This document shows positions 23,001 to 28,314 of a DNA stretch of 64,000 nucleotides, piece by piece. Where the stretch lies: positions 1-64,000 of IMG/VR virus record IMGVR_UViG_3300010965_000002; one strand, 5' to 3'. The notes beneath the pieces are model-generated. The model did no database searches, was not told where the DNA came from, and worked only from the letters and a program-made list of their open reading frames with translations. Position numbers and translations under genes: made by a program. Every line of letters begins with the position of its first letter. Within the stretch, counting starts at the first letter, position 1. The stretch comes from a virus.

Positions 23001-23579
23001 TTAACGGCCTGTAGGTACGAACATTCCAGGCATGTTGTTCATGTTGAGCCCTGCATTCTGGAACGCAGAGGTCATTGTCATGTGCGCCGACGATGCAGCA
23101 TCCATCACACAATTACGCAGCAACATTGCCACCATGCCCATAGCCATAGTGTTGAACAAGTCTTTGTTGGCGACGTTCAGATCGGGCTTGGCCTTTTCAG
23201 TCAGCCATTCTTGGAGACTGACACGCAGTTCAGAGCCTTCATCGTTGATGATCGCCAGCAACTGAGGTGCAAGCGCACTGTGCAAAGTCGTCCACACCAT
23301 TTGACGGAAAGGCGTCATCTTGCTGCCCAAGACCATAGCATCACGCTTGATTCGTTTGTCGTTGCCGTAGCCATAGCTACCTGCTTCGTACTTCGGGTTG
23401 TCCACTTCGATAGTGGTTTGGGTGACGGTCAACAGTTGTTCGGTTTCAAAGAAGGCTTTGATTTCGATTTCAACCAGTTCGTCGATTTTCTCTTTGGGGA
23501 TTAAGTCCATGAAGGCGGACAAGATTCGTTCGCGGATAACATCCTTGAACTGTGACGGAAGTGCAACATCATTGCTCAT
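23001..23579 (-). CDS. Hypothetical protein
   Basis: ORF with AAGGA SD. Confidence 0.7.
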   Translation of the reverse strand: MSNDVALPSQFKDVIRERILSAFMDLIPKEKIDELVEIEIKAFFETEQLLTVTQTTIEVDNPKYEAGSYGYGNDKRIKRDAMVLGSKMTPFRQMVWTTLHSALAPQLLAIINDEGSELRVSLQEWLTEKAKPDLNVANKDLFNTMAMGMVAMLLRNCVMDAASSAHMTMTSAFQNAGLNMNNMPGMFVPTGR

Positions 23580-23604
23580 AACATTCCTTTAACAAAACAA
23601 AACG

Positions 23605-23680
23605 TGGTGGGACGTGCGGGGGTCGAACCCACGACAAATGGATTAAAAGTCCACTGCTCTACCAACTGAGCTAACGTCCC
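23605..23680 (-). tRNA. tRNA-Lys(UUU)
   Basis: Cloverleaf GGGACGT..CTTTTAA..ACGTCCC-A-CCA. Confidence 0.97.
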
Positions 23681-23768
23681 AAAAATACTTACCATTACGG
23701 GTTGCCGAGCTTCCGTAGTTCATCGGCATGGTCAGATTATAAGCTACGGTGTTAGCCTGACAATTATC

Positions 23769-23844
23769 TGGTGCCGCTTGTCGGAATCGAACTGACGACC
23801 TACCGCTTACAAGGCGGTTGCTCTACCAACTGAGCTAAAGCGGC
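23769..23844 (-). tRNA. tRNA-Thr(UGU)
   Basis: Cloverleaf GCCGCTT..CTTGTAA..AAGCGGC-A-CCA. Confidence 0.97.
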
Positions 23845-23848
23845 GTGA

Positions 23849-23974
23849 TTACGTTGGAGGTGTGGTGTAAGCAAGGTCCATGCGTTGCACATGATGACCT
23901 TCTTCTTTGTAAACCAGTGCCTCAGTAACAGGCACGTCTTCAATCCAGCGATTGAGATACCAAACACGGTACAT
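23849..23974 (-). CDS. 41-aa small protein (MYRVWYLNRWIEDVPV...)
   Basis: GGAGG SD 4 nt before ATG; not in the ORF track. Confidence 0.6.
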   Translation of the reverse strand: MYRVWYLNRWIEDVPVTEALVYKEEGHHVQRMDLAYTTPPT

Positions 23975-24012
23975 AACACCTCCAAACATAACAAAACAGG
24001 TTAATACTCACT

Positions 24013-24226
24013 TGTGACTCCGGCAGGACTCGAACCTGCAACCGTCATGCGCTTTCAATGTGTTCGGATTCCAGTTTAACCGGGCAACGCTTCCCAGGAT
24101 TTCGCGGTCAAAAGGCGTTACTCTTTATACGCTACTGCCCTATTCGCCACATCTTCCACGCACACGTTCATTCTACCCACTGAGAGTTGTCTTTCGCAAC
24201 GTCAGTGATTTTTGAATTAAGGAGTC
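24013..24226 (-). ncRNA. tRNA-like structured RNA of about 214 nt
   Basis: GACTCC/GGAGTC acceptor-like stem, canonical T-arm GCAGG-TTCGAGT-CCTGC, long internal helices, pseudoknot. Confidence 0.7.
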
Positions 24227-24239
24227 GCAACTGAGCACT

Positions 24240-24329
24240 TGGTGCCCGGAGCCGGAATCGAACCAGCACGCCCGTTTCCGAAGCGACGGATTTTAAGTCC
24301 GTTGTGTCTACCGCTTTCACCATCCGGGG
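24240..24329 (-). tRNA. tRNA-Leu(UAA), C1:C72 mismatch
   Basis: Class II cloverleaf, anticodon loop CTTAAAA, long variable arm, CCA. Confidence 0.93.
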
Positions 24330-24379
24330 TGAGTACAGATGCGTGCTGCAAAACTTAATTGTAGCACACATTAAAAATG

Positions 24380-24820
24380 AGGGTGTCCAGTCAATCTGAT
24401 AACAGAGACTCCATCATGATCAGGAGGCTGGACTAAGCTAGAGTATTGCTACCCTAACCGCACTCTGCCGGTGGTCAGCTTTTAGGCTGCCATGCGGAAG
24501 CTACTTTCGTTTGCATTTACTTTGTTTGCATACGTGATTTTCGAGGGTACATGCTACCTCGTGTTGTAAACGCCACTATCTTACGCTGTCGAAACCAGGG
24601 CAGGCCCATCAGAAGAACACTACAACACCACACTAAAGCCCAAGAAGATATTGCTTATTTGCGGCAGTGCATCCCTTTCGGGTAGTCCGTTGATACAACT
24701 AGACTCAAGTGCGCTTCTGGTGGACCTGGCGGGAATTGAACCCGCGTCCAGCATACATTCGCTTTGTCTTTCAGAGCATGAACACGGTACGCAGGTCTTG
24801 CAACCTACTGCGTCATACTC
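24380..24820 (-). ncRNA. ssrA: Circularly permuted (two-piece) tmRNA
   Basis: Acceptor piece ending CAGGTCC-A-CCA at 24718, intervening segment 24608-24717, coding piece starting GGGCCTG at 24607 (G3.U70), pk1, tag ORF 24482-24514 ANESSFRMAA*; outer ends approximate. Confidence 0.92.
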
Positions 24821-24824
24821 ACAC

Positions 24825-25250
24825 AACAATTGACTTTTGCTTTCGCAAAATTCAGCACGGTTACTCGGCTCCCTTAGGGAACTGTTCCGGCGTCACCTTT
24901 TTCGTTGTGACAGCACTCACGGCAGGTCATTGTACTAATCAAGTCTCAGACCTTTATGGCGTCTTCATTCGGCCAACACCTTGATTCCGTGTTGCTAACA
25001 TCGTTTTATCTGGCCCACAATGTCACCGAAGATGTGATTAAACCGTCTGACGGGTCGCACACACGCACCTGCAATTGAACTTGACAGTCTTGCTGGGAAC
25101 AAGACATGATGTTGGCAGCTTCTGGATTGCGCTGCATTTGGGGCTCCGAAATCTAGGTCATAGTCTACGGAATCGAACCGTCAACCACCCCAACAGCCGA
25201 CCACCACACCCGGCTGGCTCTACCTAGACACGTTGGCGTATCAGACTACG
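24825..25250 (-). ncRNA. Large structured RNA with embedded tRNA-like module (GOLLD-like candidate)
   Basis: No ORF; many hairpins (GAAA, UUCG loops), long-range GCAGGT/ACCTGC pairing, tRNA-like unit at 25156-25249. Confidence 0.6.
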
Positions 25251-25262
25251 CATTCAACATCA

Positions 25263-25592
25263 TCAACCTACGACAGCGTAGGCTTGGCGATTAGAGCGAA
25301 GCTCCATCACCGTTGCGAGATTAAGAGTACGGTATTGGCCTGCTTTAGCATCGAAGATCGTCAAGTAGGGACGCGAATCCGCCACTGTCTTATTCTCTCC
25401 GCCTTTAGCATGGCAATGAACACCGAGGCGTCCATTAAGTGCGCGAACGCTACCGTCTTGCTTAACGAAGTCAACCCCAACGAAACGACCCTTCAATGAC
25501 ATCAGGTAATCTTTGAGATTCACACGATGCAATTCAGGACGCACATTGACTTCGATTGTGGGTACTGCTTCCGATACTGTTATTTCAAGCAT
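25263..25592 (-). CDS. Hypothetical protein, possible SH3-like beta barrel
   Basis: V.FVK.DGSVR.L.G.. and YRTL motifs; GGAG SD. Confidence 0.7.
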   Translation of the reverse strand: MLEITVSEAVPTIEVNVRPELHRVNLKDYLMSLKGRFVGVDFVKQDGSVRALNGRLGVHCHAKGGENKTVADSRPYLTIFDAKAGQYRTLNLATVMELRSNRQAYAVVG

Positions 25593-25599
25593 AAGACAC

Positions 25600-25925
25600 T
25601 CCGATTTAGGTTACTACACAGATCATGCGTTTTCACGCAAACAGGAATCGACGATTCCCGCGCCGGTTTTTTCCGTAGCAGCACTTCTAAACTGAGCCAG
25701 GACGAGCCACAATGTCTCGCGGTAATTACTTTACAGCAAACCATAAAGCACTTACCGTGAGGCACTGTTACGTTTCTCACAGGTTGGATTTCTACACCCA
25801 CTCCAACAGTGGTTTCACTTTTTGCCTCAAACGTGAATCACTACGTCAGAGTTCATTTGAGGCGATCATGCACATTCGTAGAATGAAGAGGTACACAACC
25901 CAGGAGGTTCAACTCTGACGGAACA
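25600..25925 (-). ncRNA. Candidate double-pseudoknot structured RNA
   Basis: 10-bp stem 25844-53/25911-20 crossed by 25824-31/25856-63; second crossing pair set at 25755-25811; GNRA hairpin. Confidence 0.55.
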
Positions 25926-25932
25926 CAAATCT

Positions 25933-26586
25933 TTAATCTTCGTCGTCTTCGCCTAGACTGAAATAGTCGATGTTTAGACTATCTTCGTCTATCTCTAGTA
26001 CCTTATCCGGCACTTTCAGTTTTGAAACCTTTGTAAGTACCGCCACTGCTTCAACGCGACTGCCTCTTACAGGTGTAACTAGCTCTTTATACGCTTCTGC
26101 AAGCATCGAGTTATCTTGTTGCCAATTATCTTTCATTCCAGGTTCTTCTGGAGCAAGGTGCATCAGTCGTTCGTAGACCTCGGTAACAATACTGTCATAC
26201 GAGGGAAAGCGCGTTGCCATTTGCAGATTACGTGTCCAGCAGTATCCACCATCTACACGTTCAGGTAGTATGCACCAGTAACCCGTACCATCACCACTTT
26301 TTAACACGTATTCACATGCAGACTTTACTAGATAGTAGCCTCGCTCATGAATGAACTCAAGCTCACCATCATCGTTGTCAGAGCAGTGTGGTGTTCTGTG
26401 TGTTACAGTGCCTTTAGGCATTCCATGAAAGTGTTGTCTGTTGCAGACAGGACAGAAGAACACCACCCTTCCAACAGAATGCTCAAAACATTCATATATA
26501 GGGATGTGTCTCTCAACTGCCGACTTCTGTTCTTTGGCAGACAACGCAGACAAAAGCGTGTCATGACCCGCAATGGTATCGCTCAT
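25933..26586 (-). CDS. Hypothetical protein with CPVC..H.HG..H.C motif
   Basis: ORF with AAGGA SD. Confidence 0.7.
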   Translation of the reverse strand: MSDTIAGHDTLLSALSAKEQKSAVERHIPIYECFEHSVGRVVFFCPVCNRQHFHGMPKGTVTHRTPHCSDNDDGELEFIHERGYYLVKSACEYVLKSGDGTGYWCILPERVDGGYCWTRNLQMATRFPSYDSIVTEVYERLMHLAPEEPGMKDNWQQDNSMLAEAYKELVTPVRGSRVEAVAVLTKVSKLKVPDKVLEIDEDSLNIDYFSLGEDDED

Positions 26587-26599
26587 ACAATTTCCTTAG

Positions 26600-26915
26600 G
26601 CTTTGTCGTAAGCACTTTACGCTAACAATTGGCACTATGTTAGTAAGTGTCCTAGTCACTACGACTAAGATAAGGTTCGCGTAAACACGCCGTGTTAGTG
26701 ATTGGTTCGGGATTTTACCGCTGGAAGATATATTGCGCCCCAATCAGCGCACAACCATGTTTCTGACTAATGCCAAAGGACTGACTGGTTTCAGTCAGAC
26801 TCCACCACTGCATCATTGTAAGGATGCAGACTTCTATGGCGCTTGGTTGGCCCTACACCAGCATATACTGAACCCTAATCGCGAGGGCCTTGCGCGACAT
26901 CCCGTTTTCAGTAAA
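26600..26915 (-). ncRNA. Candidate structured RNA
   Basis: 7-bp hairpins at 26781-98 and 26808-29; hairpin 26734-51 whose loop pairs with 26699-705. Confidence 0.45.
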
Positions 26916-26921
26916 CTGCCA

Positions 26922-27089
26922 TCAGGTTTGCTCCACGAGGTCTGTGAACAGAAGGCGCAGAGCCTTTTTCGCAATACGTTTCCACTGCTTCTTTGGCTTG
27001 CCAGGTGCTGGTGCGCAACATGCACACTTCCAACCTCCGGGGCCAATTCCACGGCTTGTGACTTTGCGATAATAACCTTTTTCCATCAT
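26922..27089 (-). CDS. 55-aa basic small protein (MMEKGYYRKVTSRGIGPGGWKCACC...)
   Basis: GGAG SD; not in the ORF track. Confidence 0.65.
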   Translation of the reverse strand: MMEKGYYRKVTSRGIGPGGWKCACCAPAPGKPKKQWKRIAKKALRLLFTDLVEQT

Positions 27090-27136
27090 GTGCTCCAAGT
27101 AGTTCTACATACTTAGCATGATAGTCCTTTCAATGT

Positions 27137-27213
27137 TGGTCGGTGTGGCAAGAATCGAACTTGCGACCCTCTGCTCCCAAAGCAGATGCGCTACCAGGCT
27201 GCGCTACACACCG
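27137..27213 (-). tRNA. tRNA-Pro(UGG)
   Basis: CGGTGTG..TTTGGGA..CACACCG-A-CCA. Confidence 0.97.
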
Positions 27214-27224
27214 GGAATTAGATG

Positions 27225-27720
27225 GTTCAGTTCTGTGTTGCACCGTTACCATCGGTGACTGAGACAAGCACAAAACTTCCTTGACATCCACGCAGCGTCA
27301 CGAACTTGCTGGTTAGGCAGAGGTCAATAACGACTGACGCGCTTCATACCATTACTTTACACGACTACACCAAAAGGTCATCGTGTTGTCTTACGCAACC
27401 GCCGGGTCAGCGGTATTTACTGCCGTATCTCTTGCCTCAAGTGATGATCTACGGGCTGCGTTTCGTTGCATTTATCGTCGGCAACTCGTCAGAGACTACG
27501 ACTAGGCCAAAGGCCATCCACTGCAACGCGGATAATCTATAGGGTGTTTGCTTTTGGGCGGGGTAACACCAGCACTCCGTCAAGTGCGATCAAGCCCGAA
27601 CTTGTATATTCGCACCCACGGCTTTTCAGCCACACGTTCAGGCTGTCTGCGCACAACAACATTCCAAGCACTCAATGACGGTTGATACTGCTCGGGTTGA
27701 TGTGCTACAGTCAGCAATTG
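27225..27720 (-). ncRNA. Ornate structured RNA candidate of about 480 nt
   Basis: Ends closed by TGACTG/CAGTCA and AGCACA/TGTGCT (27256-72 with 27701-13); more than 10 internal hairpins; no credible ORF. Confidence 0.6.
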
Positions 27721-27741
27721 AATTAGGAATAGCAACATACG

Positions 27742-28314
27742 TTATGTTGTAAACGATTTAGGCAAGCTAGCCATCCACTTGTAGTAGGCAGCAGCAACCT
27801 GCAAGTTCCACTTCGCATCTTCATACGCCTTGTGAGCTACTTGGCTCAAGTCAGTGGCGTGGTGAACATGCACGTTCGTTTCCCGAATGGTACGCACATC
27901 ACGTTCCCGTCGGAATTTCCACAGAGGCTTTTCGTAGCCAATATCCAGTGCCATAGTCAACAGGATGCTGCAATCAAAGCTGAGGCCGTTAATCCACAGT
28001 TCATCAGAAGCAGCAACCTCTTTGGCGATGATGTCAAGACCAGTACGGGCGTCAACATCAACGTATTCGCTTTCACCGTACAGGCTCTTACGCAAGCCAT
28101 CAGGTGTACGCAGTCGTTCGTGAAACTCAATGGTGCCTGTACTAACAGTACGTTGCAACGCCATTTGCTCAAGGAAGTCAAAGCGAAACTTTGTACCGCC
28201 CGTTTCAACCACGTTGAATTCTTCGTCAAGTGTAGCCAGCACAATGGCGACTTCAAACACTTGGGAGCGCACTGAGGTGTCCAGTGTCTCAATATCCAAA
28301 CCAGCAAGTTTCAT
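27742..28314 (-). CDS. DEDDh 3'-5' exonuclease (DnaQ-like)
   Basis: GLDIETL, WINGLSFDCSIL, RDVRTI, HKAYEDA. Confidence 0.85.
   Translation of the reverse strand: MKLAGLDIETLDTSVRSQVFEVAIVLATLDEEFNVVETGGTKFRFDFLEQMALQRTVSTGTIEFHERLRTPDGLRKSLYGESEYVDVDARTGLDIIAKEVAASDELWINGLSFDCSILLTMALDIGYEKPLWKFRRERDVRTIRETNVHVHHATDLSQVAHKAYEDAKWNLQVAAAYYKWMASLPKSFTT

What the first reader, a model, noticed from the sequence alone, without database searches (positions are those of the whole stretch)
24013..24226. 214-nt tRNA mimic with expanded D and anticodon domains
Seen: GACTCC (24226-21) pairs with GGAGTC (24021-16) next to a canonical T-arm (GCAGG-TTCGAGT-CCTGC), and the 3' end reads A-CA rather than A-CCA. 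The D-arm is replaced by a long hairpin (CACTGA..GTTG-C-GAAA-G-A-CAAC..TCAGTG). The anticodon arm is replaced by a tmRNA-like long helix (GTGCGT/GCGCAT, GATGTG/CACATT) enclosing an H-type pseudoknot (GGGCAG/TTGCCC crossed by TTGACCG/CGGTTAA). It starts 14 nt after tRNA-Leu. It lacks G3.U70, so it is not a normal tmRNA. Inference: a tRNA-mimic decoy (for tRNases, RelA or T-arm-binding enzymes) or a new tmRNA- or Y-RNA-like class.
Basis: partly seen in the sequence, partly recalled or inferred. Interest (0 to 1): 0.72.

Follow-up and report, generated by a model that had tools for sequence, protein, structure and literature searches.

The report
Anticodon-less tRNA-shaped phage RNA
An uncultivated T4-like phage carries, inside its tRNA/tmRNA gene cluster, a real 212-214-nt RNA gene that keeps the top half of a tRNA but has no anticodon, so it cannot read codons. 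It is a larger cousin of the still unexplained "stable RNAs" of phages T4 and T5.

Summary
A second, diverged copy in a related phage contig (L308/L310) shows they are under selection. There are 16 substitutions. Eight of them form four compensatory double changes, two in the acceptor stem and two in the D-loop hairpin. Two keep wobble pairs and none breaks a pair.

The RNA keeps a near-complete tRNA core: a 6-bp acceptor stem, U8, a 4-bp D stem, A14, G18G19, A21, a canonical T arm and A73. A 30-nt hairpin is inserted in the D loop, so the D arm is expanded, not replaced. A 124-nt helical domain stands where the anticodon arm should be. No anticodon loop can be drawn. The proposed pseudoknot is not established, because a nested fold fits equally well.

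It is not a tmRNA, a YrlA or an intron-bearing tRNA. Its architecture matches T4 RNAC (species 1 RNA) and resembles T5 RNA1, both long-known tRNA-cluster RNAs of unknown function. It has no detectable sequence homology to either. I found only two sequence variants, and the closest relative sampled (L122) lacks the whole block.

Function is inferred, not shown: a tRNA-processed, non-decoding "tRNA-chassis" RNA. This scan has reported the same kind of RNA on many other phage genomes.

The parts
24013..24226 (-). Whole tRNA-shaped RNA gene (element positions 1-214; position p = window 24227-p)
   Evidence: Single-sequence CM R1 finds an identical copy in L309 and a diverged copy in L308/L310.
24221..24226 (-). 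Acceptor stem, 5' strand (pos 1-6, GACUCC). U7 faces C205 as a mismatch.
   Evidence: Pairs 2:210 A-U>G-C and 3:209 C-G>U-A are compensatory in L308.
24016..24021 (-). Acceptor stem, 3' strand (pos 206-211, GGAGUC)
24013..24015 (-). Discriminator A212 followed by CA. No encoded CCA.
   Evidence: The four tRNAs of the island encode CCA. tRNA-Leu of relatives L121/L122 also ends A-CAAG.
24170..24219 (-). D arm: U8 A9, D stem AUUC (10-13)/GAAU (54-57), A14, and G50 G51 U52 A53 = G18 G19 U20 A21
   Evidence: Read directly from the sequence. All these positions are invariant between variants. D-stem pair probability is 0.5-0.66.
24178..24207 (-). 30-nt hairpin inserted in the D loop (pos 20-49; stems 20-25/44-49 and 27-30/38-41)
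   Evidence: 22:47 C-G>U-A and 29:39 U-A>C-G are compensatory, and 27:41 goes G-C>G.U.
24043..24166 (-). 124-nt domain in place of the anticodon arm (pos 61-184). It is closed by helices 61-69/175-184 and 74-79/165-170. The inner fold (80-164) is unresolved.
   Evidence: Closing helices have p 0.64-0.99 in both variants. Only 3 substitutions fall in positions 58-187 (130 nt). Pseudoknot versus nested fold is undecided.
24023..24039 (-). Canonical T arm GCAGG-UUCGAGU-CCUGC (pos 188-204)
   Evidence: The Rfam tRNA model hits only this 3' part (24015-24071, 20.8 bits, below the gathering score of 29).
24240..24329 (-). tRNA-Leu(UAA), 13 nt upstream on the same strand (context)
24391..24810 (-). 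Permuted two-piece tmRNA, same strand (context)
   Evidence: Rfam RF04321 scores 95 bits.
23849..23974 (-). Conserved small ORF (MYRVWY..., 41 aa). Its start lies 38 nt after the element's 3' end.
23605..23844 (-). tRNA-Thr(UGU) and tRNA-Lys(UUU). Together with the element and the small ORF they form the ~640-nt block that is missing in relative L122.

Best explanation
The element is a genuine, selected gene for a non-decoding, tRNA-shaped RNA of about 212 nt. It lies in the phage's minus-strand tRNA/tmRNA cluster. It keeps the tRNA 'top half' and elbow. It carries two add-ons: a 30-nt hairpin in the D loop and a 124-nt helical domain in place of the anticodon stem-loop.

Most likely mechanism (inferred, not shown): it is co-transcribed with tmRNA, tRNA-Leu, tRNA-Thr and tRNA-Lys. 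RNase P cuts it out at G1. Its 3' end is trimmed and, since CCA is not encoded, completed by the host CCA-adding enzyme. It then accumulates as a stable RNA. In this reading the tRNA frame serves as a processing and stability chassis, and possibly a protein-docking one. The 124-nt domain would be the working part, binding a still unknown protein or RNA.

In architecture and genomic context it is a larger analogue of T4 RNAC (species 1 RNA) and T5 RNA1/RNA2.
For: Structure under selection: 4 compensatory double changes, 2 wobble-preserving changes and no broken pair among 16 substitutions between the window and L308. Chance is about 4e-5. The two 3'-strand acceptor changes lie 160 nt from the 5' patch in otherwise identical sequence, so one recombination patch cannot explain them.

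tRNA core nucleotides U8, A14, A15/U187 (the Levitt 15:48 pair), G18G19, A21, G26, G53, T-loop UUCGAGU, C61 and A73 are present and invariant.

No anticodon loop: ARAGORN does not call it, with or without intron mode. The Rfam tRNA model matches the 3' part only.

Same strand as tRNA-Leu and 13 nt behind it. Synteny tmRNA, tRNA-Leu, element, small ORF, tRNA-Thr, tRNA-Lys is kept in L308-L310.

T4 RNAC folds the same way: an acceptor-like stem, a D stem with a long hairpin inserted before GG, a non-anticodon hairpin and a canonical T arm. It shows covariation across four Tevenvirinae. T5 annotates RNA1 and RNA2 as 'tRNA-like stable RNA with unknown functions' in its tRNA region, and RNA1 folds with a tRNA frame plus an inserted domain. 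T4 RNAC and RNAD are expressed, and their roles are unknown (PMC3014915, PMC9697503).
Against: Only two sequence variants are known. The 124-nt domain is almost invariant, so its fold and importance are untested.

The closest sampled relative (L122, FEN 80% identical) lacks the element altogether, so it is dispensable for that lineage.

No homologue turned up in about 2.5 Mb of phage loci, 48 whole viral records or the pattern scans.

The covariance models do not link it to its precedents: the element model R1 does not hit T4 RNAC or T5 RNA1, and the RNAC model R2 does not hit the element.

The 'chassis plus cargo' reading rests on analogy. The acceptor and D-hairpin evolve faster (19%) than the domain (2.3%). 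That could also mean the frame itself is the interface that matters.
Confidence: 0.55

Rival explanations
1. tRNA-mimic decoy. The RNA offers an acceptor/T-arm/elbow surface that soaks up a host tRNA-binding factor, for example a defence nuclease or toxin that recognises the top half of tRNAs, or a modification or processing enzyme. It may act as part of a counter-defence block together with the adjacent tRNA-Lys(UUU) and tRNA-Thr(UGU).
For: The tRNA core is intact and conserved. The element sits in a ~640-nt block with tRNA-Thr and tRNA-Lys that is present or absent as a unit relative to L122. The acceptor top and D-loop hairpin diverge 19% against about 3% nearby, while keeping their pairing, as expected if a partner co-evolves with them. 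From my own knowledge, not tested here: phage tRNAs are known to counter tRNA-cleaving defences such as PrrC and PARIS.
Against: Without an anticodon loop it cannot decoy anticodon nucleases, the best-known tRNA-targeting defences. A decoy does not need a 124-nt conserved extra domain. No partner was identified. The lineage distribution is very narrow.
Confidence: 0.2
2. cis-acting processing or punctuation element. The tRNA-like fold exists to direct RNase P and 3'-end cleavage of the polycistronic transcript, so defining the 5' end, stability or translation of the downstream small-ORF mRNA. It would not act as a free RNA.
For: The element ends 38 nt before the small ORF start, with a GGAGG Shine-Dalgarno in between. 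Both lie in the same accessory block.
Against: L308/L310 carry a 163-nt insertion between the element and the ORF. Homologues of the small ORF in 24 IMG/VR loci, in L123/L124 and in L302-L307 have no such element upstream. An ordinary tRNA would do the same job, so the two conserved expansions remain unexplained.
Confidence: 0.1
3. Chargeable tmRNA-like or other translation-linked RNA. The RNA is aminoacylated (A73 is present and no anticodon is needed, as for LeuRS, SerRS or AlaRS) and enters ribosomes or another aminoacyl-transfer reaction.
For: It has an acceptor stem, A73, a T arm and an elbow. It sits next to a phage tmRNA. A long helix leaves the body where tmRNA helix 2 does. Positions 89-109 read GCA GUA GCG UAU AAA GAG UAA (AVAYKE-stop).
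Against: 3:70 is C-G or U-A, not G.U, and 2:71 and 3:70 both differ between variants, which argues against acceptor-based identity. ARAGORN and the Rfam tmRNA models do not hit it. The mini-frame lacks a tmRNA-type hydrophobic C-terminus, unlike the phage's own tag ANESSFRMAA. The record has no SmpB gene. CCA is not encoded.
Confidence: 0.05
4. Decaying tRNA gene disrupted by insertions, or a tRNA 3' fragment closed by chance.
For: The T arm and 3' acceptor resemble ordinary phage tRNAs, such as tRNA-Met in L205 and tRNA-Arg in L163. The RNAfold z-score is only -1.5.
Against: Compensatory changes keep both the acceptor and the inserted hairpin paired. The core tertiary nucleotides are intact. 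There is no ORF or repeat signature of an inserted mobile element inside it.
Confidence: 0.05
5. Intron-bearing tRNA that is spliced to a normal decoder.
For: Bacterial tRNA genes can carry group I introns (my own knowledge). The total length is tRNA plus about 138 nt.
Against: ARAGORN intron mode finds nothing here. No group I or II intron hit at E up to 10. No 5-bp stem with a U33/R37 loop can be formed from the flanks of the domain (sequence). There are two separate expansions, one of them in the D loop.
Confidence: 0.03

Closest known systems
Phage T4 RNAC (species 1 RNA, rnaC, 139 nt; NC_000866 70908-71046), with RNAD beside it
   Same: A T4-like phage, inside the tRNA gene cluster, on the same strand as the tRNAs. 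It has an acceptor-like closing stem, a canonical T arm, and a short D stem whose loop carries a long inserted hairpin just 5' of GG. A non-anticodon helix stands where the anticodon arm should be. CCA is not encoded. Function is unknown (PMC3014915; PMC9697503).
   Different: No detectable sequence homology: CM R1 does not hit rnaC and the RNAC model R2 does not hit the element. RNAC has a simple 10-bp hairpin with an invariant CGUCAA loop. The element has a 124-nt multi-helix domain and is 1.5 times longer. RNAC's acceptor has two U.U mismatches and position 8 is A.
Phage T5 RNA1 (144 nt) and RNA2 (125 nt), annotated 'tRNA-like stable RNA with unknown functions' (NC_005859)
   Same: Stable RNAs encoded among phage tRNA genes. 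RNA1 folds with an acceptor stem, a GGUAGA-type D loop and a T arm, and has a ~60-nt domain instead of an anticodon arm.
   Different: A different phage family (Demerecviridae). T5 RNA1 has a Leu-type (class II-like) frame with an extra arm and no D-loop hairpin. R1 does not hit it.
tmRNA tRNA-like domain (SsrA)
   Same: The acceptor plus T arm are closed by the 5' and 3' ends. A long helix leaves the body where the anticodon stem would be. Pseudoknot-type complementarity lies inside it.
   Different: tmRNA has G3:U70, no D stem, a tag reading frame and needs SmpB. None of these is met here.
YrlA (bacterial Y RNA-like, RF02553; PMC4201824)
   Same: A non-decoding RNA that mimics the T arm, D arm and acceptor of a tRNA.
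   Different: In YrlA the RNA ends form the Ro-binding helix and the acceptor-like stem is capped by a loop. Here the ends form the acceptor stem. The RF02553 model does not hit the element; its weak sub-threshold matches (17 and 16 bits against a gathering score of 69) lie elsewhere in the island. The record has no Ro60/TROVE gene.
Engineered 'tRNA scaffold' for expressing recombinant RNAs (my own knowledge; not checked in a paper here)
   Same: A cargo RNA replaces the anticodon stem-loop of a tRNA frame. The frame gives correct processing and nuclease resistance.
   Different: That design is artificial. Here it would be a natural design, with a second insert in the D loop.

Membership tests
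Canonical tRNA (Rfam RF00005) | Full cloverleaf scoring above the gathering score, called by tRNA finders | tested here: not met
   Only 24015-24071 matches, at 20.8 bits (GA 29, E 0.25). ARAGORN makes no call.
Canonical tRNA (Rfam RF00005) | Anticodon stem-loop (5-bp stem, 7-nt loop with U33 and R37) | tested here: not met
   Positions 58-187 form a 124-nt domain closed by 15 bp. No such loop can be drawn.
Canonical tRNA (Rfam RF00005) | Acceptor stem, T arm, D stem and conserved tertiary nucleotides (U8, A14, G18G19, A21, G53, T54-C56, A58, C61) | tested here: met
   Read from the sequence. Invariant in both variants. The acceptor is supported by 2 compensatory pairs.
Intron-containing tRNA | An intron in the anticodon loop detectable by ARAGORN intron mode, or a group I/II intron model | tested here: not met
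   (no intron family at E up to 10).
tmRNA (one-piece or permuted) | G3:U70 alanine identity pair | tested here: not met
   3:70 is C-G in the window and U-A in L308.
tmRNA (one-piece or permuted) | Match to tmRNA covariance models or the ARAGORN tmRNA search, with a tag reading frame | tested here: not met
   The tmRNA hits lie at 24391-24815, not on the element. The only mini-frame (AVAYKE-stop) is not tag-like.
YrlA / bacterial Y RNA | RF02553 match, RNA ends forming the Ro-binding stem, and a linked Ro60 (TROVE) gene | tested here: not met
   No RF02553 hit on the element. The topology is opposite. No TROVE gene in the record.
T4 RNAC (species 1 RNA) sequence family | Significant score with a covariance model built from RNAC homologues | tested here: not met
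   R2, built from T4, EcS1, UFV01 and NM4.3, gives no hit on the element in the window or L308 at E up to 10.
T4 RNAC (species 1 RNA) architecture and context | Lies in the tRNA cluster of a T4-like phage. Acceptor-like stem plus canonical T arm. Hairpin inserted in the D loop before GG. A non-anticodon helix in place of the anticodon arm. | tested here: met
   for RNAC. for the element.
T5 RNA1/RNA2 tRNA-like stable RNAs | Sequence or structure similarity detectable by a covariance model | tested here: not met
   R1 over the T5 tRNA region hits only tRNA-Lys and the cut end of RNA2 weakly (9.5 bits). No model was built from T5 RNA1, so the reverse test was not run.
Rfam tRNA-like RNA motifs (e.g. 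skipping-rope RF02924, DUF2693-FD RF02926) | A match to any of these models | tested here: not met
   cmscan of 23500-25000 against all 4227 Rfam families at E up to 10 lists none of them.
Stable, processed RNA species | A discrete transcript with a 5' end at G1 and a 3' end at or near A212 (+CCA) | not testable with these tools
The runs are held only as contigs.

The most novel reading that the evidence does not exclude
The acceptor top and D-loop hairpin are a fast-evolving recognition surface. They diverge 19% against about 3% nearby, always with compensation. The RNA would then be the phage's answer to a host factor that grips the upper body of tRNAs. It would travel with tRNA-Lys(UUU), tRNA-Thr(UGU) and a small protein as a mobile counter-defence cassette. 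If so, T4 RNAC and T5 RNA1/2 would be members of the same functional class, and a 50-year-old puzzle would gain a testable answer.
Probability: 0.12. Interest if true: 0.8.

Novelty: new variant of a known kind. Interest (0 to 1): 0.5.

Why it matters
Phage tRNA clusters have long been known to encode a few 'stable RNAs' that are not tRNAs: T4 RNAC and RNAD, and T5 RNA1 and RNA2. Nobody knows what they do. This element shows the same building plan in a distant, uncultivated T4-like phage, with two much larger add-ons and direct evidence of selection on its helices. That supports the view that tRNA frames are reused in phages as carriers or mimics, and are not simply decayed tRNA genes. It offers a second, independent design to test alongside RNAC. 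It also warns annotators that the 'empty' spacers in phage tRNA islands can hold real RNA genes that tRNA finders and Rfam miss.

Tried and rejected
- DNA similarity search of the island against 50,697 phage records hit ordinary tRNAs only.
- Exact or gapped pattern scans for the element gave nothing in viral contigs. One 20-base match (L311) proved to be chance, with no CM hit and no tRNA. Genome contigs gave nothing.
- The search for related loci with single proteins (FEN, topoisomerase subunit) found no close relatives in IMG/VR.
- The one metagenome scan, using the FEN alignment, was wasted. The peptide patterns chosen were generic, and only ~30-37% identical FENs came back. They had no element.
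- CM R1 found only ordinary tRNAs and tmRNA tRNA-like domains. It was run over 119 tmRNA-anchored loci, 67 tRNA-Leu-anchored loci, 24 small-ORF loci and 48 whole viral records.
- Derivation from tRNA-Cys, tRNA-Met or tRNA-Arg: only the T-arm region is shared. I judged this generic.
- A tRNA-Leu (class II) frame, as earlier notes of this scan describe for other phage RNAs, does not fit. Here the D stem has 4 bp, 'GGUA-GAAU' reads like a class I D arm, and the variable region is 3 nt.
- Loop-loop contacts between the D-loop hairpin and the 124-nt domain, as seen in RNAC: only an A/U-rich 5-6 bp possibility (32-36 with 113-117), which conflicts with both inner folds. Not claimed.
- No CCA-adding enzyme, SmpB or Ro60 gene in the 177-kb record, which is ~72% complete.

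Full report
**Setting**

The window is the first 64 kb of a 176,943-bp IMG/VR phage record, about 72% complete. It has T4-type replication genes: two-subunit topoisomerase II, NAD ligase, FEN and UvdE. The topoisomerase A subunit is only about 35% identical to cultured phages.

On the minus strand, 23600-27740 is an RNA island. It holds tRNA-Lys(UUU) at 23605-23680, tRNA-Thr(UGU) at 23769-23844 and a small ORF at 23849-23974. The element lies at 24013-24226, followed by tRNA-Leu(UAA) at 24240-24329. A permuted two-piece tmRNA lies at 24391-24810 (Rfam RF04321, 95 bits) and tRNA-Pro at 27137-27213.

**The observation**

- acceptor 1-6/206-211, with U7 facing C205
- T arm 188-192/200-204, with loop UUCGAGU
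- a hairpin at 20-49
- a long helix 61-69/175-184 continued by 74-79/165-170
- two crossing stems, 87-92/140-145 and 116-121/146-151

A212 is followed by CA, not CCA.

- The D arm is not replaced. U8-A9, a 4-bp D stem (AUUC 10-13 / GAAU 54-57), A14, G50G51 (= G18G19), U52 and A53 (= A21) are all there. The 30-nt hairpin is therefore an insertion in the D loop.
- A15 and U187 can form the 15:48 pair. G58 stands at position 26.
- The spacer to tRNA-Leu is 13 nt.
- RNAfold gives this cloverleaf-like outer fold as MFE and centroid, but the z-score is only -1.5. Energy alone proves nothing.

**Is it more than chance?**

Direct DNA searches found no homologue.

Relatives were reached through neighbouring proteins. 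FEN homologues of 50-99% identity exist in metagenome assemblies, but their contigs mostly break at the tRNAs.

The small ORF was the key. Its 90%-identity cluster contains members on Logan contigs L308, L309 and L310. A single-sequence covariance model of the element (R1) hits them as follows:
- L309:2968-3181 at 282.7 bits, identical to the window
- L308:2355-2568 and L310:327-540 at 260 bits

The gene order tmRNA, tRNA-Leu, element, small ORF, tRNA-Thr, tRNA-Lys is the same in these contigs.

Window and L308 differ at 16 of 214 positions.
- Compensatory double changes: 2:210 A-U to G-C, 3:209 C-G to U-A, 22:47 C-G to U-A, 29:39 U-A to C-G.
- Wobble-preserving changes: 27:41 G-C to G.U, and 116:151 U-A to U.G.
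- The other six (19, 26, 31, 43, 81, 131) are unpaired in the model.

None of 56 pairs is broken. Sliding the 3' partners by 1 to 3 columns gives zero compensatory pairs. Placing 16 substitutions at random hits both sides of four or more pairs with p about 4e-5.

Changes 209 and 210 lie in an otherwise identical 3' stretch, 160 nt from the diverged 5' region. The acceptor pairing was therefore restored by selection and not carried over in one recombination patch.

The acceptor stem and the D-loop hairpin are thus real RNA helices. The D stem, T arm and closing helices never vary, so they carry no covariation evidence. They are thermodynamically robust in both variants, with pair probabilities of 0.5-1.0.

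**The inner domain**

For positions 80-164 the evidence is open. RNAalifold prefers a nested fold: 106-116/134-143, containing the 7-bp GUAACGC/GCGUUGC, plus 144-148/152-156.

C81A and U131G break two helices of the window's own MFE. They break no helix of either the pseudoknot or the nested model. A151G fits both.

Six-bp crossing stems are expected by chance in 85 nt. The pseudoknot is therefore possible but unproven. The C31-G36 pair that would close a GAAA tetraloop is lost in L308.

**What it is not**

- **Not a decoding tRNA.** ARAGORN does not call it, with or without introns up to 400 nt. Rfam's tRNA model aligns only the 3' part, at 20.8 bits. No 5-bp stem with a 7-nt U33/R37 loop can be drawn.
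- **Not an intron-bearing tRNA.** No intron family hits it at E up to 10. There are also two separate expansions.
- **Not a tmRNA.** 3:70 is C-G or U-A. No tmRNA model or ARAGORN tmRNA call falls on it. The only mini-frame (positions 89-109, AVAYKE-stop) is unlike the phage's own tag ANESSFRMAA. The record has no smpB.
- **Not YrlA.** There is no RF02553 hit, the topology is reversed, and there is no Ro60 gene.
- **Not a decaying pseudogene.** Compensation argues strongly against that.

**What it resembles**

Phage T4's tRNA cluster ends with two annotated stable RNAs, rnaC (species 1, 139 nt) and rnaD. Their roles are still unknown (PMC3014915; PMC9697503, which also confirms RNAC by Northern blot).

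Folded, RNAC shows:
- an acceptor-like stem
- a short D stem whose loop is 'AA + long hairpin + GG'
- a 10-bp hairpin where the anticodon arm should be
- a canonical T arm, CCGGG-UUCGAAU-CCCGG

Aligning T4, EcS1, UFV01 and NM4.3 shows covariation in the acceptor, the T stem and both hairpins. This is the same building plan as the element, down to the site of the D-loop insertion.

Phage T5 likewise annotates RNA1 and RNA2 as 'tRNA-like stable RNA with unknown functions' among its tRNAs. RNA1 folds as a tRNA frame with a ~60-nt domain instead of an anticodon arm.

Homology is not detectable. R1 does not hit rnaC or T5 RNA1. A covariance model built from the RNAC alignment (R2) does not hit the element. 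I therefore file it as an architectural and contextual analogue, not as a member of the RNAC sequence family.

**Distribution**

The element is rare among the relatives I could sample.
- In L122 and L121 (FEN 80% identical), tRNA-Leu is followed directly by the 194-aa gene. The ~640-nt block of element, small ORF, tRNA-Thr and tRNA-Lys is absent.
- L123 and L124 keep the small ORF behind an unrelated ~330-nt leader with no T arm.
- The small ORF occurs in 24 IMG/VR loci and in L302-L307 without the element.
- R1 found nothing but ordinary tRNAs and tmRNA tRNA-like domains in about 2.5 Mb of phage loci and 48 whole viral records.

**Mechanism (inferred)**

The element shares a strand with tRNA-Leu and lies 13 nt behind it. 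It has a tRNA-type acceptor, T arm and elbow. It should therefore be released from a polycistronic precursor by RNase P at G1.

Its 3' end (A-CA-AG) would need trimming and CCA completion. The record encodes no CCA-adding enzyme. A predicted 3'-5' exoribonuclease gene lies at 27742-28314, at the edge of the island. tRNA-Leu of relatives L121 and L122 also ends A-CAAG, so incomplete CCA is not unusual in this lineage.

The mature RNA cannot decode. I consider it most likely a tRNA-chassis RNA. In that reading the frame gives processing, stability and perhaps docking, and the 124-nt domain does the specific work. Overall confidence is about 0.55: high for 'real non-decoding tRNA-shaped RNA', low for the functional part.

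The fast, compensated evolution of the acceptor top and D-loop hairpin is compatible with it: 11 of 57 positions differ, against 3 of 130 in the domain and 3-4% in the flanks. So is the company of tRNA-Lys and tRNA-Thr in a present-or-absent block. It is untested.

**Relation to earlier notes of this scan**

I reached RNAC independently. After that, the scan's notes showed that follow-up agents have reported non-decoding tRNA-shaped RNAs in many other phage genomes, mostly naming T4 RNAC/RNAD or T5 RNA1/RNA2 as closest known.

I checked the T5 lead myself and the Rfam tRNA-like motif lead. The 'tRNA-Leu frame' described in several of those notes does not fit this element. No look-alike of this sequence exists in the scan's index.

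**Verdict**

This is a real gene for an anticodon-less tRNA-shaped RNA. It is a new and unusually large variant of a known but unexplained kind. The pseudoknot and any function remain open.

Noticed in passing
L308:2585-2747 (and the same in L310), between the element and the small ORF: A 163-nt insertion bounded by long terminal inverted repeats (TGCCATTAGATTGCTTGACTT ... AAGTCAAGCATTCTAATGGCA). It folds into one long hairpin at -71 kcal/mol with flanks. It is absent from the window and L309, and the 177-kb record holds no copy. It could be a MITE-like insert or a further structured RNA.
   Followed up: partly
L154:1909-2047 (T4 rnaC) and alignment A8: In T4 RNAC the invariant loop UUGACG of the hairpin inserted in the D loop is the exact complement of the invariant loop CGUCAA of the anticodon-arm-like hairpin. 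Both stems covary across four Tevenvirinae. This suggests a 6-bp kissing contact inside RNAC. I did not find it mentioned in the papers I read.
   Followed up: partly
L061:7878-7983, L116:4632-4739, L021:8457-8566: Three tmRNA-bearing IMG/VR phages carry related ~103-107-nt tRNA-like RNAs. Each has a 5' GUGGCYGUGAGCAAAUAGG, a 7-bp acceptor stem, a T arm and A73. L061 and L116 end A-CCA; L021 ends A-CAU. ARAGORN does not call the one in L061 (the only one of the three scanned). Their fold z-scores are -2.6 to -3.1.
   Followed up: partly
L056:9671-9772 and L070:14087-14175: tRNA-Ile(UAU)-like genes with an unusually long variable arm (99 and 89 nt) in phage tRNA arrays. ARAGORN does not call the L056 one.
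   Followed up: partly
window 23600-24240 versus L122:964-1003: The block of element, small ORF, tRNA-Thr(UGU) and tRNA-Lys(UUU), about 640 nt, is missing as a unit in the closest sampled relative. There tRNA-Leu abuts the 194-aa gene. It behaves like an accessory cassette.
   Followed up: partly
window 23849-23974 (-): The small ORF (MYRVWYLNRWIEDVPVTEALVYKEEGHHVQRMDL...) belongs to a well-conserved small-protein family. It occurs in 24 IMG/VR loci and several metagenome contigs in varied contexts, sometimes beside HNH endonuclease genes and tRNAs. It has no Pfam family.
   Followed up: partly
window 27742-28314 (-): A predicted Rv2179c-like 3'-5' exoribonuclease gene sits at the edge of the RNA island. 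It is a candidate for 3' trimming of the island's RNAs.
   Followed up: no
L121:104-193 and L122:875-964: tRNA-Leu(UAA) of the 80%-FEN relatives ends GGGCA-CAAG, without an encoded CCA. The window's copy encodes CCA. The element's own trailer (A-CAAGUG) resembles the tRNA-Leu trailer (A-CCAAGUG).
   Followed up: no
L315 (T5, NC_005859 29000-33000): Besides RNA1 and RNA2, T5's tRNA region is annotated with four more 'stable RNA with unknown functions' genes: RNAI, RNAIII, RNAIV and RNA2H. So phage tRNA islands rich in non-tRNA RNAs have a cultured, tractable example.
   Followed up: no
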